From Clostridium sp. CAG:217 (GTDB taxonomy: Bacteria; Bacillota_I; Bacilli_A; Erysipelotrichales; Erysipelotrichaceae), in NCBI GenBank assembly GCA_963623125.1, contig CAVFKJ010000046.1:41253-103304 (forward strand): DNA of 62,052 nucleotides, written 5' to 3'. The first letter of the stretch is position 1. Each line of letters starts with the position of its first letter. The position numbers and the translations under genes were made by a program. Shown in pieces: positions 293 to 7,724 of this stretch. The notes under the pieces are model-generated. The model made no database searches, was not told the DNA's origin, and saw nothing but the letters and a program-made list of their open reading frames with translations.

Positions 293-1130
293 TTTGCTGG
301 TTTTTCAAACTGATTTTGGCTTAGATGATGGTGCCATTAGTGCGATGGAGGGTGTAGCTTTTGGGGTAAGTCAAAGCCTTAATATTCGTCATCTAACGCA
401 TAATATTCCTCAATACAATATATTTGATGCCTCATATCGTTTGTATCAAGCTATTAATTATTGGCCAGAGGGTACCGTCTTTGTTTCGGTAGTTGATCCA
501 GGTGTAGGTAGTTCTAGAAAAAGCGTTGTAGCTAAGACTTCTACTAATCAATATATTGTTACCCCAAACAATGGTACTTTAACCCATATTGAGAAGTTTG
601 TAGGCATCGAGGAATTAAGGGAGATAGAAGAGAGTGTTAATCGTTTAAAGGATTCAGAACTTTCTTATACTTTCCATGGTCGTGATGTTTATGCCTATAC
701 TGGTGCTAGACTTGCGTCTAATACTATTGATATGAGTGGTGTAGGCCCTAAGCTTGATTTAAGTGAAATTGTAGAGCTTGAACTTTATGGTTGTCAGGAA
801 ATTGAAAATGGTGTTAAAGGTCAAATTGATATCTTAGATGTGCGTTTTGGTTCTTTATGGACATCTATTCCTTATGAAGATTTTAAGAAATGTGGTTTTA
901 AGTTTGGCGATAATATCTTAGTTAAAATCTTTAATAAGGATATTTGTGTTTACGCTAATACGGTAAATTATGGTAAATCTTTTGCGGATGTGCCTGTTTC
1001 TACGCCTATCATTTACATGAATAGCGCTTATCATATTGCCGTGGCAATAAATCAAGGCTCTTTTGCGAAAGCTTATAATATTGGGGTTGGTAGTGATTGG
1101 AAGATTACTATGCAAAAGGCCAGCATCTAA
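285..1130 (+). CDS. S-adenosyl-L-methionine hydroxide adenosyltransferase family protein (DUF62, SalL/FlA fold)
   Basis: N-terminal LLVFQTDFGLDDGAISAMEGV and VVDPGVGSSRK motifs are typical of DUF62. The ATG at 285 overlaps the stop (290-292) of the preceding paralog. The track start at 279 is a TTG. Confidence 0.75.
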   Translation: MNNLLVFQTDFGLDDGAISAMEGVAFGVSQSLNIRHLTHNIPQYNIFDASYRLYQAINYWPEGTVFVSVVDPGVGSSRKSVVAKTSTNQYIVTPNNGTLTHIEKFVGIEELREIEESVNRLKDSELSYTFHGRDVYAYTGARLASNTIDMSGVGPKLDLSEIVELELYGCQEIENGVKGQIDILDVRFGSLWTSIPYEDFKKCGFKFGDNILVKIFNKDICVYANTVNYGKSFADVPVSTPIIYMNSAYHIAVAINQGSFAKAYNIGVGSDWKITMQKASI

Positions 1131-1161
1131 ATAAATATAATATTTAAGTAATCTTAAAATG

Positions 1162-1188
1162 GCTTAAGTTTAACACTTAGGCTTTTTT
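1162..1188 (+). terminator. Rho-independent terminator candidate
   Basis: Imperfect hairpin gcttaagt/acttaggc followed by TTTTTT. Confidence 0.5.
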
Positions 1189-1233
1189 ATTTTTAAGGTT
1201 ATAATAAGAAAAAATAAGAAGGGAGTATTCTAT

Positions 1234-4200
1234 ATGAATAAATCGCTATTAGCCAAAGTCTTACGATGTGTGGTATTAAGCTTGTTGTTTATAACGATCA
1301 TGCCTTGTAATATCTTAGCCCAGGGGGAAAAAGCTTATGCCTATAGTGAAAGTGATGGTAAGAAGACTTATTATTATTCCATTCCTGAGGCGATGAATGG
1401 CTCAAGAAAAGGCGCTATTCATATGACAAGAGATTGGGATGTTGGTGCCCAAATCAATATTGTAGAGGGTACTACTTCTATCATTTATATGGATGGTTTT
1501 ACTATTTATAAAGCTAATGATACTGAGTCTGATCCTTATCTAGGCGGTTTGTTTACTACTCATCCTAATTCTAAGTTATATCTATATGGTTCAACTACTT
1601 CAAAAGAATTTATGGATAGTAATGGTAATAAGGTTATAAGTGGTGGTTTGCTTACTGGTGGTTATGCCCATGATGGCGGTGCCATTTATATGAGAAATAA
1701 TTCCAAAATATATTTAACTAATGTGGCAATTAGTGGAAATAAGGGCGAATATACCGGTGGTGGTATTCATGTTGGTGAGGATTGTGAGATTTGGATGGAT
1801 AATGGCCACATTGATCATAATTATTCTGGAACTAATGGCGGTGGTATTTATTCTAGTTCGGATGGTACCCGTATTCATATGAGCAATAACTCATCAATTA
1901 GTTATAATGATTCTCATTCAATAAGTGGCGGTGGTGCTGGCGTTTGTTTTAAAAAAACTTGGTTTTCAATCGAAGGTGATGGTACTGCCAAAATTAGCAA
2001 TAATACCCATCATGATAGTGATGGTAGTGGCGGCGGCATCTATGTTTGCCAAAATAATTTTCATACTAATAATGGTTTAATTAGCGGTGTTATTATTGAT
2101 GGCAATAAGGCTTCTAGAGGCGCTGGTGTTTGTATTGGTACAAGTAATATTGTTTTAAAAGATGTAACAATTGCAAATAATACCGTAAAAGTTGATGGTG
2201 ATAACACTGGCGGTGGTGGCGTTTATGTTGCGACTGATGTTGATGTTAATCTTCAAGGTAAAGTAGAAATAATCAATAACAAGCGAACTGATGGCGCTGA
2301 TGATGATTTATTATTAGATGCGTTTATCACAAAAGCTTATATAAGACTTAAGGGTTTAAGTTCTGATTCTTTGATTGGCATTCGAACAAGCACAACAGGT
2401 GATAGATTAGTAGTAAAAAACATTTCAGATTCTAAGCTTTATTCTTGTTTCTTTTTAAATCAAGCTTCAAGTTACCATCTAGGGATTGAATCTAAAGATA
2501 ATGAACTATGGCAAAGAAATGGCACTACAAGTTATACGGTTAAGGTAAATGGAAAGCCGGTTGGTAAATACGCAGAAGGTACAAAGAATGTTACGATTGT
2601 TGATAATAATACCGATACATCTAGAGTATTTGTTTCTTGGAAAGAAAATTCTCTGGTAAAGCTAACTAATGATCAATTAAAGTCAAAAACTATTTCTTTT
2701 ACAATGCCGGCATTCAATGTAAATATGGAGGCCAATTATCTTCCTTCTGTTAAAGAACTTTCTTTAGATATTGATGGCGCTATTACTGATGGTCAAAAGT
2801 TTCCTGTTAAGGGATCTCTTAATTGGACTTTTAACAATATCGAAAATAGCGAGACAGTTACTTTAAATTGGTATAAGAAACAAGATGATTCATTTATAAG
2901 TTGTGCAGAAAATGAAGTCGCAACAAGTGGTGGGGAATACATATTTGAAGTATATGCCGATGCAAAACAAGATGGTGTACATGTATTATCTAGCTCCATT
3001 ACAAAAGATAACATAAAGATAAATTATGAGGGTATAACAGTTAGTGAATTTTCTTTAAGCGATGAAGGAACATTAAATTTTAAGAGTGATAAGATTCTTA
3101 TAGGCAAAGATAAGATTAAATATGTTGATCCAATAGTTGTTTTAGTAAGAGAAGGTGATAGTAAAAGGAATGTTATAAAGGCTATCACTCAAGTAAACAA
3201 TAATACTAGAAAACTTATCGCTACTTCTTATAATGGCTATGAATATGAAGTTGAACTAAATACGATTGAAATTGGAACATTTAATATAGATGGCGTGTTT
3301 GATAAAGAAGGTGAAGATGGAAAAGTGGCAGAAAATGCCAAGGCTTATTATCAAACAAGTGTTGGTGTCTCTACTACAAATAGTAAGATTGATTTAAATG
3401 GTAACACTAGTGCTGATGTGGTCATTATGGTGTTACCTAATAATGATGGAGATGCTGATACAAAGCCAAGTAAGCCTGAATTATTAGATAATGAATCTTG
3501 GACATTTGGTGACACTTTGTCAAAGAAAATAAAAATAGAATATAACGATTATCAAAAAGCATATTTACTTTATTATGATAAAGATGATGATGGTATCTTA
3601 AAATGGAACCTTAAGAATGTATTTGAACAACAAATTGTAGCTAGTAAAAATTCTTATAAAGAAGTTAAGGCTTTTGCTTGGGTTGTTGAAAACGGTAATA
3701 TGTCCGATGTTGCAAGTAAGCTTTATATAATTGACAATAGAATTAAATTCACATCATTTATTTCTAAGGTAGATGTGACAATTGATAATCTTGTTTATGG
3801 CCAAAGTTTGCCAACAGTTGTTAAAAATGTTGATGTAACTTTATCTGGAAATAAAGTTGCTTTATATAAGGATGTGCCAATACAATCATGGAATACAAAT
3901 GGTGAAGAGGTAGCTTTAAATAACAAGGTATATCAAGCCAAGATAGAAATAACCAATACGGGTGATTATGATATTGAGTATTTGTCTTCTTTACATGTAG
4001 AAGTTAATAATAATTCTAATATTTATGCTTATATAAAAAATGAAGATGGTAAAGCTATGTTATATATTATTTTCCCAGAACTAGAAGGTAGTACTGGTGA
4101 TTATGATGAAGATATACCGTTAAGTTATACTTTAAATGATATTGAAATAGATGATTATACTAGTGAGATATCTTATGAGGAAGCATGTAAATTGAACAAC

Positions 4201-4584
4201 GAAGTAAGTAAACTTGATTTGCCTAATGTAATACTAAAGTCAATTAATAATAATGATGATTCTAAAGAGTACTTTAGGATATATAAGGATGATATAGACT
4301 ATAGGATTATTACACCATTTGACTTAAACAATTATAATGCTCAAGAGATAGTAATAGAGGGCACTATTAACGAACCTTCATATTTAGAGTTTAATGGTTT
4401 AAGCAATAAGTTTACTTTAAGAATTAAAGTCAATTCAAAACAAGGTTATATACCTCAAGATGTTTTGGATAACTCAAGTAATAAGGCTATTACTTGTGAG
4501 GAATATATGAAATCAAAAGATTGGACTTGGTCTGAAAGTAAGAAGGCTTGTGTATATAAGGTAAGCAATACAAATAGTAAATAA
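1234..4584 (+). CDS. Large secreted surface protein with polymorphic-membrane-protein (PMP)-type beta-helix repeats
   Basis: N-terminal signal peptide (VVLSLLFITIMPCNILAQG). It has repeated GGAIY / GGGIH / GGGIY / GGGAGV / GGGVYV motifs spaced 20-30 aa apart. The long beta-rich C-terminal part looks Ig-like. No LPXTG is present. Confidence 0.7.
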   Translation: MNKSLLAKVLRCVVLSLLFITIMPCNILAQGEKAYAYSESDGKKTYYYSIPEAMNGSRKGAIHMTRDWDVGAQINIVEGTTSIIYMDGFTIYKANDTESDPYLGGLFTTHPNSKLYLYGSTTSKEFMDSNGNKVISGGLLTGGYAHDGGAIYMRNNSKIYLTNVAISGNKGEYTGGGIHVGEDCEIWMDNGHIDHNYSGTNGGGIYSSSDGTRIHMSNNSSISYNDSHSISGGGAGVCFKKTWFSIEGDGTAKISNNTHHDSDGSGGGIYVCQNNFHTNNGLISGVIIDGNKASRGAGVCIGTSNIVLKDVTIANNTVKVDGDNTGGGGVYVATDVDVNLQGKVEIINNKRTDGADDDLLLDAFITKAYIRLKGLSSDSLIGIRTSTTGDRLVVKNISDSKLYSCFFLNQASSYHLGIESKDNELWQRNGTTSYTVKVNGKPVGKYAEGTKNVTIVDNNTDTSRVFVSWKENSLVKLTNDQLKSKTISFTMPAFNVNMEANYLPSVKELSLDIDGAITDGQKFPVKGSLNWTFNNIENSETVTLNWYKKQDDSFISCAENEVATSGGEYIFEVYADAKQDGVHVLSSSITKDNIKINYEGITVSEFSLSDEGTLNFKSDKILIGKDKIKYVDPIVVLVREGDSKRNVIKAITQVNNNTRKLIATSYNGYEYEVELNTIEIGTFNIDGVFDKEGEDGKVAENAKAYYQTSVGVSTTNSKIDLNGNTSADVVIMVLPNNDGDADTKPSKPELLDNESWTFGDTLSKKIKIEYNDYQKAYLLYYDKDDDGILKWNLKNVFEQQIVASKNSYKEVKAFAWVVENGNMSDVASKLYIIDNRIKFTSFISKVDVTIDNLVYGQSLPTVVKNVDVTLSGNKVALYKDVPIQSWNTNGEEVALNNKVYQAKIEITNTGDYDIEYLSSLHVEVNNNSNIYAYIKNEDGKAMLYIIFPELEGSTGDYDEDIPLSYTLNDIEIDDYTSEISYEEACKLNNEVSKLDLPNVILKSINNNDDSKEYFRIYKDDIDYRIITPFDLNNYNAQEIVIEGTINEPSYLEFNGLSNKFTLRIKVNSKQGYIPQDVLDNSSNKAITCEEYMKSKDWTWSESKKACVYKVSNTNSK

Positions 4585-4589
4585 TCAAC

Positions 4590-4619
4590 AAGGTTTGGGT
4601 GTATGCTCAAGCCTTTTTT
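4590..4619 (+). terminator. Rho-independent terminator
   Basis: Stem aaggtttggg/ctcaagcctt (with G-U pairs) followed by a T-run. Confidence 0.6.
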
Positions 4620-4620
4620 A

Positions 4621-4720
4621 TAAAACATGTAATTTTAGACTTAAAAAACATCATAAAACTTGTAATATTTGCTTTAAAAAATAGCTTAAAACTTGTAATG
4701 AAAAAACTGTGATTGTAAAA
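4621..4720. repeat. Degenerate 33-bp tandem repeat, about 3 units
   Basis: TAAAAC(A/T)TGTAAT occurs at 4621, 4654 and 4687 (exact 33-bp spacing). Each copy is followed by a TTAAAAAA-like A-run. Confidence 0.7.
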
Positions 4721-4760
4721 TACGCCTTAAATAAAGGGCATTTCGTTAATGTTTGCTACA

Positions 4761-4824
4761 ACTAGACAAGACTAGATAAGTTTTGTCTAGTCACTAGACA
4801 AAATATTGTCGAGTAACTAGACAA
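4761..4824. repeat. ACTAGACAA word array: two direct copies plus two 9-1-9 palindromes
   Basis: actagacaa at 4761 and actagataa at 4771. Perfect palindrome ttgtctagt-c-actagacaa at 4783-4801. Near-palindrome ttgtcgagt-a-actagacaa at 4806-4824. Confidence 0.75.
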
Positions 4825-4858
4825 ATATGCGCGCAGGATATTGCTTTTGCATTTTTAA

Positions 4859-5854
4859 TCAAAGAGTTTCAAACATATCTAATGCATAAGAGTGAATATC
4901 ACTTGGCTTTACCATGTTGTATTTTTCTTTTATTGCTTTAAAATATGCTCCAATAGATTCGTTTGAAATAATCTTTTCAGATGGAGATTCTAACGGTAAA
5001 TCACTTCTGGCCTCAAGCCAAGGTGTTTCGCTATGCGTGAATTTTTCAAGTACTTTTCCACTGTAACAGCAAAAATTATCTATAACGCTATCAAAGATTG
5101 CTTTTTCTGCTGTGCTTAAGCACGAATCATCAAAGCTTGTATTCTTGGCAATAGGATCAAAATGATAATCACGATATTTAAAATAGACTTCTCGATAAAC
5201 AGGGCCATGTGTCCATGCTTCGCATTCTTCTTTAAAAAGGAAAGTATCACAAAAGGCAAAGTAAAACCCTTGGATATAATATAAAGCCTTTTGTAGTGCT
5301 AAAGGTGTGACATCTTCACATTTATTTAAAAGATATTTGATTGCAATATCGATTTTTGAAGATGAGGTTGTAGATTCATTTATTAATGCATCTACTGCTT
5401 TACGGCTTTTTTTATACGCATTCAATGACTTTAAATTGCCTTTTCTAGATTCTAGTAATTTTGCATAATAATGTGGGTCTTCATATATTTTGGCAAGAAT
5501 TTCTGAATATTGTTTTGTAGGAATATCACCTTCACAATATCTAGAAAAAGTAAGTTCTCCCCATCCCAATAAAAGTGAAAGCGGTCTTTTACCAATTGCA
5601 TATTTTTTAGGGATTGCCAAAATTGTTTCTAATGAAAGAATACCGTTTTTTTCGCGATATGTATCATATAAAGCTTTTAGATTAAAGTCGTTGATTTCTC
5701 TAACATAAACTTTCGAATTGCACTTAGTACATCTAGCAATCTTTCCAATATAACTATACTTTGTGCCCTTAATGGTTCCCTCCATCGATTCTTTATTTAC
5801 TTCATATTCTTCATCAAGACGACAATTTTCACAAAAAATCATTTTTTTATTCAT
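4859..5854 (-). CDS. Antitoxin candidate: MqsA-like zinc ribbon + XRE-type HTH fused to a DUF4065 (SocA/Panacea) domain
   Basis: CENC...CTKC zinc ribbon at the N-terminus. HTH-like segment LSLLLGWGELTFSRYCEGDIPTKQYSEIL. DUF4065-like segment LALQKALYYIQGFYFAF...WTHGPVYREVY. Its start overlaps the upstream ORF by 8 nt. Confidence 0.65.
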   Translation of the reverse strand: MNKKMIFCENCRLDEEYEVNKESMEGTIKGTKYSYIGKIARCTKCNSKVYVREINDFNLKALYDTYREKNGILSLETILAIPKKYAIGKRPLSLLLGWGELTFSRYCEGDIPTKQYSEILAKIYEDPHYYAKLLESRKGNLKSLNAYKKSRKAVDALINESTTSSSKIDIAIKYLLNKCEDVTPLALQKALYYIQGFYFAFCDTFLFKEECEAWTHGPVYREVYFKYRDYHFDPIAKNTSFDDSCLSTAEKAIFDSVIDNFCCYSGKVLEKFTHSETPWLEARSDLPLESPSEKIISNESIGAYFKAIKEKYNMVKPSDIHSYALDMFETL

Positions 5855-6287
5855 TATGATTCTCCTTTTCTATATCTTGTCTAAATAGATACTCTATTGG
5901 TTTATTTTTCTTATGAAAGGAAATTACAATAGTTCTACTTCCAGATGGCAAGTCAATAATATTGAATTTCGTATATACATCTATCGTTTCTTCTTTACCA
6001 TCAGCGTTAAAAAGTTTAATTTGAGGGACAAAGACATAAAGTATTTCGTATTCATAGCCAATATGTGTGTTTTGTAAAGAATGACAGAAATCTTCAACTT
6101 TTATTCCCATTAGAATAGCCTTTTGTTTATCACTGCGAATATTATATTCGTTGATAAAATCAATATTTTCTTGACGATTATCATTCATGGAAATTACATA
6201 TTGGTCTAAAGATATACATGTTTTAATTTTGCTTAGAACATCTTCTATTTCCTTACGTGAATAGTTTTGATTATAATACGAATTCAT
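5847..6287 (-). CDS. MqsR-like toxin candidate
   Basis: The C-terminal IDVYTKFNIID...RTIVISFHKKNK resembles the MqsR end (QVYLKITVIHDVLIVSFKEK). VEDFCHS resembles MqsR SESDFYKS. The gene is toxin-first and overlaps the antitoxin. GAGGG RBS lies upstream of the ATG. Confidence 0.5.
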   Translation of the reverse strand: MNSYYNQNYSRKEIEDVLSKIKTCISLDQYVISMNDNRQENIDFINEYNIRSDKQKAILMGIKVEDFCHSLQNTHIGYEYEILYVFVPQIKLFNADGKEETIDVYTKFNIIDLPSGSRTIVISFHKKNKPIEYLFRQDIEKENHNE

Positions 6288-6343
6288 TAGTCCCTCTTCA
6301 ATGATTATGATACATTAATTGCCTAATTGTGTCTAGATAAAGT

Positions 6344-6357
6344 GTATCAATTGATAC
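6344..6357. promoter_or_regulatory. Palindromic operator candidate in the promoter region of the toxin-antitoxin operon
   Basis: Perfect 14-bp palindrome GTATCAATTGATAC about 60 bp upstream of the toxin start. An extra TGATACA half-site lies at 6307-6313. Confidence 0.4.
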
Positions 6358-6440
6358 ATATTTTAAATTTGCCAACCGAAACACTTTATGAACAAAAGTC
6401 ATTTATTGAGGTTACAATAGAAATAACTAAGAGGTATGAT

Positions 6441-7724
6441 ATGTCAAAGTATGTTTTAACTAATTGTTTTGTTTTAGATGGTACAAAGGACATGAAGGCT
6501 AATAAAGGTAGCGTTTATGTTGAAAATGATAAGATCGTTAAAGTAAGTGATGATGATAAGCTAATTGAAGGTTATGAAGTGATTGATTTAAAGGGTAAAT
6601 ATTTAATGCCTGGTTTAATCAATATGCATGTTCATTTGGCTGGCAATGGTAAGCCCCAAAAGAAACAAAGAGATAATGAGAAGCTAGTTAAGCAAGTTTT
6701 CGCTACAGCTGCTGGACGTTATGTGGCTAGAAAGCTTGTAGAAGATTATGCCAAGATTGAGCTTATGTCTGGAGTTACAACCATTAGAACAGTAGGGGGC
6801 CTAAAAGATTTAGATTCTAAGACAAGAGATAAGATTAATGCTGGTAAGATGGTTGGGCCTAGAATCTTGTGTTCTAATACCGCAATTTCTGTAAAGGGTG
6901 GTCATATGGCGGGTAGTGTTGCCAAGGCTTGCGATAGTATTGATGAAGCTTTAGCTTTTATTGACGAGCTTAATAAAGAAGGTGTTGATTTAATTAAGCT
7001 GATGATTACTGGCGGTGTAATGGATGCTAAGGAAAAGGGTGTTCCTGGCCAATTAAAGATGAAACCGGAGATGGTTAAGGCGTGTTGTAAGAGGGCACAC
7101 GAGCTTGGTTTTATTGTTTCAGCCCATGTAGAAAGCCCTGAGGGTGTTAAGGTAGCCTTGGAAAATGGTGTTGATTCTATTGAGCATGGTGCTGTTTTAG
7201 ATGATGAATGTGTCAAATTATTCAAGGAAAAGAAGGCTTTCTTGATTTGTACAGTTTCACCTGGCATTCCATATGCTTTATTTGATAGAGAAGTAGCTCA
7301 TACAAGTGAAGTTGAAAAGTATAATGGCGAAATTGTCTTAAATGGTTTTATCGAAGGCGCTAAGAAGGCTTTGGAAAATAATATTCCGGTAGGGCTTGGC
7401 AATGATGTAGGCTGTCCTTGGATTAGCCAATATGACTTCTATAGAGAGCTTGTTTATTTCCATAAATATGTTGGCGTAAGTAACGCTTTTGCCTTATATA
7501 CCGCAACGCTTAATAACGCTAGATTAGCGGGCGTAGAAAAAGAAACCGGTTCAATTGAAGCTAATAAGTGTGCAGATATGATTGTTACTAGTAAAAATCC
7601 TTTAGATAATCTTAATAATTTGCGTAATGTGGATATGGTTATTAAATCGGGTAAGATTATCTATAATCCAAAGGTTAAGCGTAAGGCTTATGTTGATTCT
7701 TATTTGGATGAATATTGTAAATAA
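6441..7724 (+). CDS. Metal-dependent amidohydrolase family protein
   Basis: LMPGLINMHVHL (HxH metal motif), SAHV and SIEHG motifs. AAGAGG RBS lies 7 nt before the ATG at 6441. The track start at 6327 would run through the divergent promoter. Confidence 0.75.
   Translation: MSKYVLTNCFVLDGTKDMKANKGSVYVENDKIVKVSDDDKLIEGYEVIDLKGKYLMPGLINMHVHLAGNGKPQKKQRDNEKLVKQVFATAAGRYVARKLVEDYAKIELMSGVTTIRTVGGLKDLDSKTRDKINAGKMVGPRILCSNTAISVKGGHMAGSVAKACDSIDEALAFIDELNKEGVDLIKLMITGGVMDAKEKGVPGQLKMKPEMVKACCKRAHELGFIVSAHVESPEGVKVALENGVDSIEHGAVLDDECVKLFKEKKAFLICTVSPGIPYALFDREVAHTSEVEKYNGEIVLNGFIEGAKKALENNIPVGLGNDVGCPWISQYDFYRELVYFHKYVGVSNAFALYTATLNNARLAGVEKETGSIEANKCADMIVTSKNPLDNLNNLRNVDMVIKSGKIIYNPKVKRKAYVDSYLDEYCK

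What the first reader, a model, noticed from the sequence alone, without database searches (positions are those of the whole stretch)
4859..6287. Toxin-first MqsR-like toxin paired with an MqsA-like antitoxin carrying a C-terminal DUF4065 (Panacea) domain
Seen in sequence: two minus-strand ORFs overlap by 8 nt. The upstream 146-aa protein ends IDVYTKFNIID...RTIVISFHKKNK and contains VEDFCHS, which parallel the MqsR C-terminal strands (QVYLKITVIHDVLIVSFKEK) and SESDFYKS. The downstream 331-aa protein has three parts: a CENC...CTKC zinc ribbon, an XRE-like HTH (LSLLLGWGELTFSRYCEGDIPTKQYSEIL), and a DUF4065-like module (LALQKALYYIQGFYFAF...WTHGPVYREVY). Established: mqsRA is the classic toxin-first type II TA pair, and MqsA consists of a zinc ribbon plus an XRE HTH. 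DUF4065 (SocA/Panacea) is a promiscuous antitoxin domain that pairs with many unrelated toxins. Inference: a complete MqsA-like antitoxin fused to a Panacea domain gives two potential neutralising modules in one protein. I do not recognise this as a described architecture. It may be a defence-type or abortive-infection module.
Basis: partly seen in the sequence, partly recalled or inferred. Interest (0 to 1): 0.6.

Follow-up and report, generated by a model that had tools for sequence, protein, structure and literature searches.

The report
Known MqsR-like toxin, MqsA-Panacea antitoxin
This is an intact two-gene toxin-antitoxin cassette (a divergent MqsR-type RNase toxin followed by an antitoxin made of a zinc ribbon, a DNA-binding domain and a Panacea domain), but the design was catalogued in 2022 and dissected by experiment in 2023, so it is an ordinary new member of a known family.

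Summary
Two minus-strand ORFs (146 aa at 5847-6287, 331 aa at 4859-5854) overlap by 8 nt.

- **Antitoxin:** it matches the MqsA family (TIGR03830, 62.1 bits against a 61.8 cut-off) and Panacea (PF13274, 67.1 bits). Its AlphaFold model's best PDB match is E. coli MqsA (3GN5).
- **Toxin:** it has no direct Pfam MqsR hit. However, 33 of 81 family representatives hit PF15723 below threshold. A profile-profile comparison with true MqsR gives 94% probability across nearly the whole protein. Y81, K83 and S94 are kept, and K96 is replaced by His. Foldseek did not retrieve MqsR, so fold-level proof is missing.
- **Novelty:** the claim fails. Ernits et al. 2023 (PMC10440598) dissected Bacillus fungorum MqsR:PanA, which has the same ZBD-HTH-Panacea antitoxin. 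The zinc domain neutralises the toxin and Panacea does not.
- **Distribution:** the pairing recurs in about 52 of 66 related loci in diverse bacteria. Earlier follow-ups in this scan reached the same verdict on other genomes.

- A 14-bp palindrome sits 7-8 nt upstream of the -35 in all 54 loci examined and is probably the operator.
- The 8-nt overlap results from a lineage-specific loss of the toxin stop codon (CAA where relatives have a stop).
- The cassette sits in a variable chromosomal region.

The parts
5847..6287 (-). Toxin gene, 146 aa. It belongs to a divergent MqsR-superfamily branch that is normally 136 aa.
   Evidence: ORF. No Pfam MqsR hit for the protein itself. 33 of 81 family representatives hit PF15723, at 17-25 bits where scanned singly. 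hhalign against the MqsR family gives 94% probability, E 1.4e-7. The family-conserved residues R38, N41, D66, F67, F86, Y105, K107, S123 and H125 are all present. AF2 model pLDDT is 93.5.
5877..5879 (-). Codon 137 of the toxin, CAA. Relatives have a stop codon here. Its loss adds 10 residues (QDIEKENHNE) and creates the 8-nt overlap with the antitoxin gene.
   Evidence: 17 of 17 relatives have TAA, TGA or TAG at this codon. The alignment shows the extension only in the window.
4859..5854 (-). Antitoxin gene, 331 aa, with three domains: ZBD, HTH and Panacea (an MqsA-PanA antitoxin).
   Evidence: TIGR03830 at 62.1 bits (cut-off 61.8) over residues 8-133, and PF13274 at 67.1 bits over residues 187-279. 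AF2 pLDDT is 91.2. More than 2,300 homologues, most 331 aa, some named MqsA-family or SocA-domain antitoxin by NCBI.
5645..5854 (-). Zinc-binding domain (about residues 1-70) with Cys8, Cys11, Cys42 and Cys45. This is the predicted toxin-neutralising part.
   Evidence: The four Cys are invariant in 41 homologues. The spacing C11-C42 = 31 equals E. coli C6-C37 (PMC2791442). The model shows a long beta ribbon (E13-42) plus helix 52-69. The Foldseek top hit is MqsA 3GN5, probability 1.00.
5435..5644 (-). XRE-type HTH domain (about residues 71-140). Predicted roles are dimerisation and operator binding.
   Evidence: Covered by TIGR03830 and PF15731. Helices 75-136 in the model. The FSRY motif is shared with E. 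coli MqsA. The Foldseek alignment to 3GN5 spans all 131 residues of MqsA.
4862..5359 (-). Panacea (DUF4065/SocA-like) domain, about residues 166-331. It follows a low-confidence hinge at residues 161-164.
   Evidence: PF13274 E 3.2e-18. phrog_1281 covers residues 166-314. The model has a helical domain with a small beta hairpin at 211-219, as described for Panacea in PMC10440598.
6343..6358 (.). Perfect 16-bp palindrome TGTATCAATTGATACA (14-bp core at 6344-6357). It is the likely operator for the antitoxin HTH dimer.
   Evidence: A GYAYYAATTRRTRC-type inverted repeat lies 7-8 nt upstream of the -35 and 68-94 nt (mostly 71-75) before the toxin ATG in 54 of 54 loci from unrelated genomic contexts. 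44 of these have no mismatch to the degenerate pattern. Binding is inferred, not shown.
6307..6335 (-). Promoter of the toxin-antitoxin operon: -35 TAGACA (6335-6330), 17-nt spacer, -10 TATCAT (6312-6307).
   Evidence: Consensus scan. The same positions align with TTGACA-17-TATCAT in the relatives.
5862..5867 (-). Antitoxin ribosome-binding site AAGGAG, here lying inside the extended toxin ORF.
   Evidence: Sequence. The equivalent GGAGG lies in the intergenic spacer of relatives.

Best explanation
This is a chromosomal, toxin-first type II toxin-antitoxin operon of the published MqsR:PanA class.

- **Toxin (inferred):** the first gene encodes a small RelE/MqsR-superfamily endoribonuclease that arrests growth by cleaving RNA.
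- **Antitoxin (inferred from the B. fungorum homologous architecture):** the second gene encodes an MqsA-like antitoxin whose N-terminal four-cysteine zinc-binding domain binds and neutralises the toxin.
- **Autoregulation (inferred from conservation):** the central XRE-type HTH dimerises and represses the operon. It would do so by binding the conserved 16-bp palindrome that abuts the -35 element.
- **Panacea domain (published hypothesis only):** the C-terminal Panacea domain is an accessory module that is not needed for neutralisation. It may be a sensor that controls toxin release.

The following are shown directly: the two intact genes, the domain composition, the conserved pairing, and the conserved promoter and palindrome.
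For: - **ORFs:** the two ORFs and their overlap are confirmed.
- **Antitoxin domains:** TIGR03830 scores over its cut-off and PF13274 well over. The four Cys are invariant. The AF2 model has pLDDT 91.2 and its only significant PDB matches are E. coli MqsA 3GN5 (probability 1.00, E 2.9e-4, all 131 residues aligned).
- **Toxin homology:** PF15723 is the only recurrent Pfam hit in the family, in 33 of 81 representatives, best E 3.5e-6. hhalign against an MqsR alignment gives 94% probability, E 1.4e-7, over 90 columns covering MqsR 9-100.
- **Toxin residues:** E. coli Y81, K83, S94 and D53-F54 correspond to Y105, K107, S123 and D66-F67, which are 90-100% conserved. Y81 and K96 are toxicity residues in E. 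coli (PMC2791442).
- **Toxin secondary structure:** the AF2 model (pLDDT 93.5) has three helices and a beta sheet in the same linear order as MqsR.
- **Conserved pairing:** about 52 of 66 loci in Clostridia, Gemella, Fusobacterium and others carry the 136-aa toxin followed by the ~331-aa ZBD-HTH-Panacea protein. The same pair occurs on B. cereus-group megaplasmids.
- **Published experiment:** in B. fungorum MqsR:PanA, ZBD or ZBD-HTH neutralise, Panacea alone does not, and the Y97 substitution detoxifies (PMC10440598).
- **Operator:** the palindrome sits at a fixed place in 54 of 54 loci.
Against: - The window's toxin has no Pfam MqsR hit at E <= 1, and searching the whole genome with PF15723 found nothing. 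Relatives scanned singly reach only 17-25 bits against a 26.2 cut-off.
- Foldseek of the confident toxin model against the PDB gave no match at E <= 0.001, and MqsR was not among the 50 listed. The one significant viral match is an unhelpfully named 124-aa protein.
- Two of the four E. coli toxicity residues are not conserved. The K56 position is variable (His here) and Q68 has no counterpart. K96 is replaced by His.
- The Pfam MqsA model is below threshold (20.2 against 30) and TIGR03830 passes by only 0.3 bits.
- No toxicity, neutralisation, RNA cleavage or DNA binding was or could be tested here.
- I could not retrieve the B. fungorum proteins for a direct sequence comparison.
Confidence: 0.85

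Rival explanations
1. The module is primarily an anti-phage abortive-infection system. The Panacea domain senses a phage cue and releases or activates the RNase toxin. This concerns biological role and is compatible with the best explanation's anatomy.
For: PMC10440598 favours a sensor role for Panacea in multidomain PanA antitoxins and links TA modules to phage defence in general. Both proteins match PHROG families: phrog_34059 at 4e-20 and phrog_10390 at 4.9e-60. The cassette is patchily distributed and lies in a variable region.
Against: No PADLOC defence model matches the toxin, and the antitoxin has only a chance-level hit at E 0.02. No match was found in 50,697 phage records by DNA or by protein. 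The neighbours are a surface protein, an amidohydrolase, a YitT-like protein and rsmG, not a defence island. No MqsR:PanA system has been shown to protect against phage in the papers read.
Confidence: 0.2
2. One reading: the antitoxin carries two working neutralising modules (the MqsA zinc domain and Panacea). Either each neutralises the toxin redundantly, or Panacea neutralises a second, unlinked toxin.
For: Stand-alone Panacea domains can neutralise toxins directly, as in B. choladocola PanA (PMC10440598). Panacea pairs with many unrelated toxins (PMC8832971).
Against: In the one dissected ZBD-HTH-Panacea antitoxin, Panacea alone and HTH-Panacea failed to neutralise, while ZBD alone sufficed (PMC10440598). 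Only one candidate toxin gene adjoins the antitoxin here and in the relatives.
Confidence: 0.08
3. The 146-aa protein is not an MqsR homologue. Instead it is an unrelated small toxin or a non-toxic partner, and the resemblance to MqsR is convergent or spurious.
For: There is no direct HMM hit. Foldseek did not retrieve MqsR. The active-site set is only partly shared. RefSeq annotates plasmid homologues as hypothetical proteins.
Against: hhalign gives 94% probability over nearly the full length of MqsR, with the conserved motifs in register. PF15723 is the sole recurrent Pfam family among 81 relatives. The protein is always paired, toxin-first, with an MqsA-family zinc-domain antitoxin, which in E. 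coli binds MqsR.
Confidence: 0.1
4. The cassette is decaying. The lost toxin stop codon and the degenerate -35 (TAGACA) would mark a module that is no longer functional.
For: Codon 137 is CAA instead of a stop. The -35 deviates from the TTGACA of most relatives. Several relatives have interrupted toxin genes (L021, L028, L030, L041, L060, L064-L069).
Against: Both ORFs are full length and every family-conserved residue is retained. A 98%-identical 146-aa copy exists elsewhere (P0001). The extension merely translates the former spacer and ends in a stop overlapping the antitoxin start, an arrangement typical of coupled TA genes.
Confidence: 0.05

Closest known systems
Bacillus fungorum MqsR(D2):PanA (toxin WP_099686063.1, antitoxin WP_099686064.1; Ernits et al. 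2023, PNAS, PMC10440598)
   Same: The accession numbers there run toxin then antitoxin. It pairs a small MqsR-type toxin with an antitoxin built as ZBD (MqsA) - HTH - Panacea, 349 aa against 331 aa here, with the domain boundary near residue 175 against about 166 here.
   Different: The sequences could not be fetched, so identity is unknown. The nearest Bacillus homologues I could read (B. cereus-group megaplasmids) are 41-43% identical in the toxin and are annotated hypothetical. The window's toxin gets no direct MqsR domain hit. Nothing was tested experimentally here.
Escherichia coli MqsR/MqsA (PDB 3HI2, 3GN5; Brown et al. 2009, PMC2791442)
   Same: Toxin-first operon. The antitoxin has a four-Cys zinc domain with identical Cys spacing followed by an XRE HTH. 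The antitoxin model's best PDB match is 3GN5. The toxin motifs DF, VY.K and VSF are in register. An inverted repeat lies in the promoter.
   Different: The antitoxin here has an extra ~165-residue Panacea domain. The toxin is 136-146 aa against 98 aa, with an extra beta hairpin. The K56 and Q68 equivalents are not conserved and K96 is His. From my own knowledge, the E. coli MqsA palindrome is of the ACCT...AGGT type, whereas the palindrome here is TGYAYYAATTRRTRCA. Pairwise sequence identity is insignificant.
PanAT systems in general (Kurata et al. 2022, PNAS, PMC8832971)
   Same: A Panacea/DUF4065-containing antitoxin next to a small toxin. MqsR-like is the commonest annotated partner (n = 90), and N-terminal HTH domains were found in 343 PanA sequences.
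   Different: That survey did not dissect the zinc domain. One MqsR:PanA pair tested there (Herbaspirillum frisingense) was toxic but not rescued in E. coli.
SocAB type VI system of Caulobacter (SocA, the founding DUF4065 protein)
   Same: The C-terminal domain matches the SocA-like Panacea family.
   Different: The SocA equivalog model is far below threshold (43.6 against 190 bits). SocA acts as a proteolytic adaptor for the SocB toxin, and there is no SocB-like partner here.

Membership tests
MqsR toxin family (Pfam PF15723) | Match to the family HMM above the gathering score (26.2 bits) | tested here: not met
   No hit at E <= 1 for the window protein, and none in the genome. Relatives scanned singly reach 17-25 bits. 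33 of 81 relatives have sub-threshold or borderline hits, best E 3.5e-6.
MqsR toxin family (Pfam PF15723) | Remote homology to bona fide MqsR over most of its length | tested here: met
   hhalign of the 81-sequence family against a 30-sequence MqsR alignment gives 94.0% probability, E 1.4e-7, over 90 columns covering MqsR 9-100. Against E. coli MqsR alone it gives 69.7%.
MqsR toxin family (Pfam PF15723) | RelE-like fold: six-stranded sheet with three helices | tested here: inconclusive
   The AF2 model (pLDDT 93.5) has three helices, then a sheet, in the same linear order plus one extra hairpin. Foldseek against the PDB gave no significant match, and MqsR was not in the 50 listed.
MqsR toxin family (Pfam PF15723) | Toxicity residues K56, Q68, Y81 and K96 of E. 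coli MqsR | tested here: inconclusive
   Y81 corresponds to Y105 (78 of 81). K96 corresponds to H125 (80 of 81, a substitution). The K56 position is variable (His here). Q68 falls in a gap.
MqsR toxin family (Pfam PF15723) | Toxic RNase activity neutralised by the cognate antitoxin | not testable with these tools
   Requires expression and cleavage assays.
MqsA antitoxin family (TIGR03830 / PF15731) | Match to the family model above the cut-off | tested here: met
   TIGR03830 scores 62.1 bits against a 61.8 cut-off over residues 8-133, so it only just passes. Pfam PF15731 is below its cut-off at 20.2 against 30.
MqsA antitoxin family (TIGR03830 / PF15731) | Four zinc-coordinating cysteines (CxxC ... 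CxxC) | tested here: met
   C8, C11, C42 and C45 are invariant in 41 homologues. The spacing is the same as E. coli C3, C6, C37 and C40. Metal binding itself was not tested.
MqsA antitoxin family (TIGR03830 / PF15731) | MqsA fold (zinc ribbon plus five-turn helix, then HTH-XRE domain) | tested here: met
   The Foldseek top two PDB hits are 3GN5 chains A and B, probability 1.00, E 2.9e-4, 131 columns, 21% identity.
Panacea / SocA-like domain (Pfam PF13274) | Match to the family HMM above the gathering score (25.7 bits) | tested here: met
   67.1 bits, E 3.2e-18, residues 187-279 matching model positions 1-112 of 113.
MqsR:PanA class with ZBD-HTH-Panacea antitoxin (Ernits et al. 2023) | Domain order ZBD, HTH, Panacea in one protein, encoded directly after an MqsR-type toxin gene | tested here: met
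   The same arrangement is present in about 52 related loci.
MqsR:PanA class with ZBD-HTH-Panacea antitoxin (Ernits et al. 2023) | Neutralisation by the ZBD, with Panacea dispensable | not testable with these tools
   Known only for B. fungorum. No multimer prediction tool was available.
SocA type VI antitoxin (NF047745 equivalog) | Match above the equivalog cut-off (190 bits) | tested here: not met
   43.6 bits, over residues 180-243 only.
Catalogued anti-phage defence systems (PADLOC-DB 2.0) | Match of either protein to a defence-system model | tested here: not met
   The toxin has no hits. The antitoxin has only PDC-S26 at E 0.02, 12 bits.

The most novel reading that the evidence does not exclude
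This large, database-unannotated toxin branch may be more than a sequence-divergent MqsR. It is 136 aa with an invariant Tyr-Lys pair, a near-invariant His in place of K96 and no K56/Q68 equivalents. It could be a mechanistically distinct RNase, with a different catalytic set and cleavage specificity. Its release could be controlled by the Panacea domain acting as a sensor of a phage or stress cue, which would make the cassette a small defence module.
Probability: 0.15. Interest if true: 0.45.

Novelty: new member of a known kind. Interest (0 to 1): 0.15.

Why it matters
It matters little as a discovery, because the architecture, its gene order and the division of labour among the antitoxin domains are already published. 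The practical value is in annotation. The toxin partner is still labelled 'hypothetical protein' in RefSeq records and gets no Pfam domain. Yet it forms a large family: 416 representatives at the 50% identity level with E <= 0.001, found in gut Clostridia, Gemella, Fusobacterium and B. cereus-group megaplasmids. The strictly conserved palindrome next to the -35 gives a ready-made operator for anyone studying how MqsA-PanA antitoxins autoregulate. The open question of what the Panacea domain does in multidomain antitoxins could be addressed with any member of this family.

Tried and rejected
- **Direct homology searches for the toxin.** Direct HMM searches gave nothing useful: Pfam, NCBIfam and PADLOC, phmmer and a family profile against PDB sequences, and PF15723 against the whole genome. 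Homology to MqsR had to be shown through the family.
- **Fold searches for the toxin.** Foldseek of the toxin model against the PDB and the viral library did not retrieve MqsR. The PDB top hits were NTF2-like and CaMKII hub folds at E > 0.03. I do not read these as meaningful.
- **Related-loci scan.** The search for related loci with the family alignment failed because no stretch was conserved enough. It was rerun with the single protein.
- **Phage and prophage origin.** No match in the phage collection by DNA or protein, and there are no phage genes beside the cassette. I rejected a phage or prophage origin for this copy.
- **TGTCTAG word.** I considered that this word links the promoter to the downstream palindromes at 4781-4825. 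I rejected this. The promoter copy is simply a degenerate -35 (TAGACA against TTGACA in relatives). The word is not enriched in the window overall. The downstream palindromes are absent from all 66 related loci.
- **Simple insertion site.** Rejected. A same-genus genome keeps both flanks but carries about 4.5 kb of other genes in between, so this is a replaced variable segment with no identifiable empty site.
- **B. fungorum proteins.** I tried to find the exact proteins by looking at Bacillus plasmid hits. The accessions differ, so no direct comparison was possible.
Full report
**Observation.** The minus strand carries two ORFs exactly as reported: 5847-6287 (146 aa) and 4859-5854 (331 aa). 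They share 8 nt. A plausible promoter (TAGACA-17-TATCAT, 6335-6307) and a ribosome-binding site precede the first gene.

**The antitoxin.** NCBIfam TIGR03830 (MqsA family) matches residues 8-133 at 62.1 bits, just over its 61.8 cut-off. Pfam SocA_Panacea matches residues 187-279 at 67.1 bits against a 25.7 cut-off. Pfam MqsA_antitoxin is sub-threshold at 20.2 bits, and the SocA equivalog is far below its cut-off.
- An alignment of 41 homologues shows Cys8, Cys11, Cys42 and Cys45 to be invariant. Their spacing is that of the zinc ligands Cys3, Cys6, Cys37 and Cys40 of E. coli MqsA (PMC2791442).
- The AlphaFold model (pLDDT 91.2) shows a long beta ribbon plus a long helix (residues 1-70), a helical HTH region (75-136), a linker helix with a low-confidence hinge at 161-164, and a helical domain with a small hairpin (166-331).
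- Its only significant PDB matches are the two chains of E. coli MqsA, 3GN5. Probability is 1.00, E is 2.9e-4, and all 131 residues of MqsA are aligned.
- The three-part architecture is therefore confirmed.

**The toxin.** The 146-aa protein itself has no Pfam MqsR_toxin hit even at E <= 1. It has no PDB sequence match, and PF15723 finds nothing in the whole genome. It does belong to a large family:
- 1,179 hits at 90% clustering, mostly 136 aa and unannotated.
- 416 representatives at 50% clustering with E <= 0.001.

Of 81 full-length representatives, 33 match PF15723 at E <= 0.1 (best 3.5e-6), and no other Pfam family recurs. Scanned singly, these reach 17-25 bits, just under the 26.2 cut-off.

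A profile-profile comparison of the family with an alignment of 30 genuine MqsR proteins gives 94% probability and E 1.4e-7 over 90 columns spanning MqsR 9-100. The residue correspondences are as follows:

| E. coli MqsR | This family | Conservation in 81 representatives |
|---|---|---|
| D53-F54 | D66-F67 | at least 90% |
| Y81 | Y105 | 78 of 81 |
| K83 | K107 | 81 of 81 |
| S94 | S123 | 80 of 81 |
| K96 | H125 | 80 of 81 (Lys replaced by His) |
| K56 | position 69 (His here) | variable |
| Q68 | none | falls in a gap |

K56, Q68, Y81 and K96 are the residues whose substitution lowers MqsR toxicity (PMC2791442). Only part of the functional set is therefore retained.

The AlphaFold model is confident (pLDDT 93.5). 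It has three helices followed by a sheet in the same linear order as MqsR, plus one extra hairpin and a C-terminal helix made by the extension. Foldseek, however, found no significant PDB match, and MqsR was not among the 50 listed. The single significant viral-library match is uninformative.

I conclude that the protein is a divergent MqsR-superfamily member, with about 85-90% confidence. It is not a member of Pfam PF15723 as currently drawn.

**Conservation of the pair.** A scan of one genome per species found 66 related loci in Lachnospiraceae, Clostridium, Oscillospiraceae, Gemella, Fusobacterium necrophorum, Syntrophomonas and a few Spirochaetes and Bacteroidota MAGs.
- In about 52 of them an intact 136-aa toxin gene is followed by a ~331-aa ORF. 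The gap is 19-60 nt and contains a GGAGG ribbon-binding site. The ORF has two CxxC motifs 34 residues apart and a Panacea-like C-terminus.
- The rest are cut by contig ends or have interrupted toxin genes.
- The same pair lies on Clostridium estertheticum and B. cereus-group megaplasmids. RefSeq calls the toxin 'hypothetical protein' and the antitoxin 'type II toxin-antitoxin system antitoxin SocA domain-containing protein'.
- The antitoxin has more than 2,300 close homologues, some named MqsA-family antitoxin.

**Features specific to this copy.**
- In 17 of 17 relatives sampled, toxin codon 137 is a stop. The window has CAA there. The ORF therefore reads through the old spacer and ribosome-binding site for ten more codons and ends in a TAA overlapping the antitoxin start. 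The 8-nt overlap is thus a derived trait of this lineage, shared with a 98%-identical 146-aa protein (P0001).
- The -35 is TAGACA rather than the TTGACA of most relatives.
- All family-conserved residues of both proteins are intact, so I see no sign of decay.

**Regulation.** Immediately upstream of the -35 lies the perfect palindrome TGTATCAATTGATACA (6343-6358).
- An inverted repeat of the form GYAYYAATTRRTRC occurs in 54 of 54 loci examined. It sits 7-8 nt upstream of the -35 and 68-94 nt (mostly 71-75) before the toxin start. 44 of the 54 have no mismatch to the degenerate pattern.
- Sequence similarity between loci ends just upstream of the repeat.
- The pattern was defined after looking at the data. 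Even so, an 18-19-bit pattern at a fixed position in every locus, across unrelated genomic contexts, is far beyond chance.
- It is the obvious candidate operator for the HTH dimer. By its position it would block RNA polymerase at the -35. This is inference; no binding was tested.
- It differs in sequence from the E. coli MqsA palindrome (my own knowledge: ACCT...AGGT type).

**Context.** The neighbours are a 1,116-aa secreted repeat protein, an amidohydrolase, a YitT-like membrane protein and rsmG.
- A same-genus genome (G007) keeps both outer flanks at 79-82% identity but has about 4.5 kb of different genes between them and no TA cassette. Among 30 relatives, only two (G017, G020) show weak partial matches to the antitoxin gene.
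- The cassette is therefore accessory and sits in a variable segment, but no insertion scars were found.
- There is no match in 50,697 phage records and no PADLOC hit of note. Both proteins do match PHROG families of unknown function.

**Comparison with what is known.**
- Kurata et al. 2022 (PMC8832971) record that DUF4065 had been proposed in 2013 as an alternative antitoxin of MqsR. They find MqsR-like to be the commonest annotated toxin partner of Panacea antitoxins (n = 90) and report N-terminal HTH domains in 343 PanA proteins.
- Ernits et al. [quoted passage not shown] Isolated ZBD and ZBD-HTH neutralise the toxin. Panacea alone and HTH-Panacea do not. Substituting the toxin's catalytic Tyr abolishes toxicity. 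The authors favour a sensor role for Panacea.
- The 'two neutralising modules' idea is thus contradicted for the nearest studied system.
- Earlier follow-ups in this scan reached the same conclusion for the same design in many other genomes. I read the two papers before consulting those notes.

**Verdict.** This is a real, intact toxin-first TA operon of the MqsR:PanA (ZBD-HTH-Panacea) class: a new member of a known kind, of low interest. Three things are modestly new here:
- The evidence that the unannotated 136-aa toxin family is an MqsR offshoot with a Tyr-Lys-His constellation.
- The invariant promoter-proximal palindrome.
- The stop-codon loss that explains the overlap.

Noticed in passing
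window 6343-6358, and L004-L063 upstream of the toxin genes: A 14/16-bp inverted repeat (TGYAYYAATTRRTRCA) lies 7-8 nt upstream of the -35 in 54 of 54 related cassettes from very different bacteria. Similarity between loci ends just upstream of it, so it marks the 5' edge of the mobile cassette.
   Followed up: yes
window 5877-5879: Toxin codon 137 is CAA where all 17 sampled relatives have a stop. This gives a 10-residue tail that translates the old spacer and RBS, and it creates the 8-nt overlap.
   Followed up: yes
window 4621-4825: A repeat-dense gap lies between the convergent surface-protein and antitoxin genes. It holds three TAAAACWTGTAAT copies at 33-bp spacing and a cluster of ACTAGACAA words forming a perfect palindrome (4781-4803) and an imperfect one (4806-4825). 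The palindromes occur nowhere else in the incomplete genome and in none of the 66 related cassettes, so they are not part of the TA module. Their function is unknown.
   Followed up: partly
relatives such as L013, L048, L056 and L058, between the -10 and the toxin ATG: Many relatives have a second inverted repeat (TTGCAT ... ATGCAA) bracketing the toxin RBS and start codon, resembling operator half-sites. It could be a second operator or an RBS-sequestering hairpin. The window's copy lacks it.
   Followed up: no
L021, L028, L030, L041, L060, L064-L069: About ten related loci have toxin genes interrupted or truncated. In L068 and L069 the full-length antitoxin gene remains, which suggests recurrent toxin loss leaving orphan antitoxins.
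   Followed up: no
L003 (G000 contig C11) 1288-2979, minus strand; outside the window: The same genome carries a DarT-DarG pair. DarT is PF14487 at 137 bits. The partner is a 356-aa macrodomain protein whose C-terminal part has a sub-threshold Panacea match (21.4 bits).
   Followed up: partly
window 1120-6425 compared with L076 (G007:C7) 1750-6243: A same-genus relative shares both flanks (79-82% identity) but has an unrelated ~4.5-kb gene set in place of the surface-protein gene plus the TA cassette. This is a variable chromosomal segment.
   Followed up: partly
window 6327-7724: The mechanical ORF for the amidohydrolase starts at a TTG inside the TA promoter region. The likely real start is the ATG near 6441 (MSKYVLTNCF...). 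That leaves a ~150-bp divergent intergenic region.
   Followed up: no
window ~4400-4620 (query positions 1400-1620): The 3' end of the 1,116-aa surface-protein gene and its terminator region recur at 80-92% identity on at least six other contigs of the same genome and in a same-genus genome. This suggests a family of paralogous surface proteins with a shared C-terminal module.
   Followed up: no
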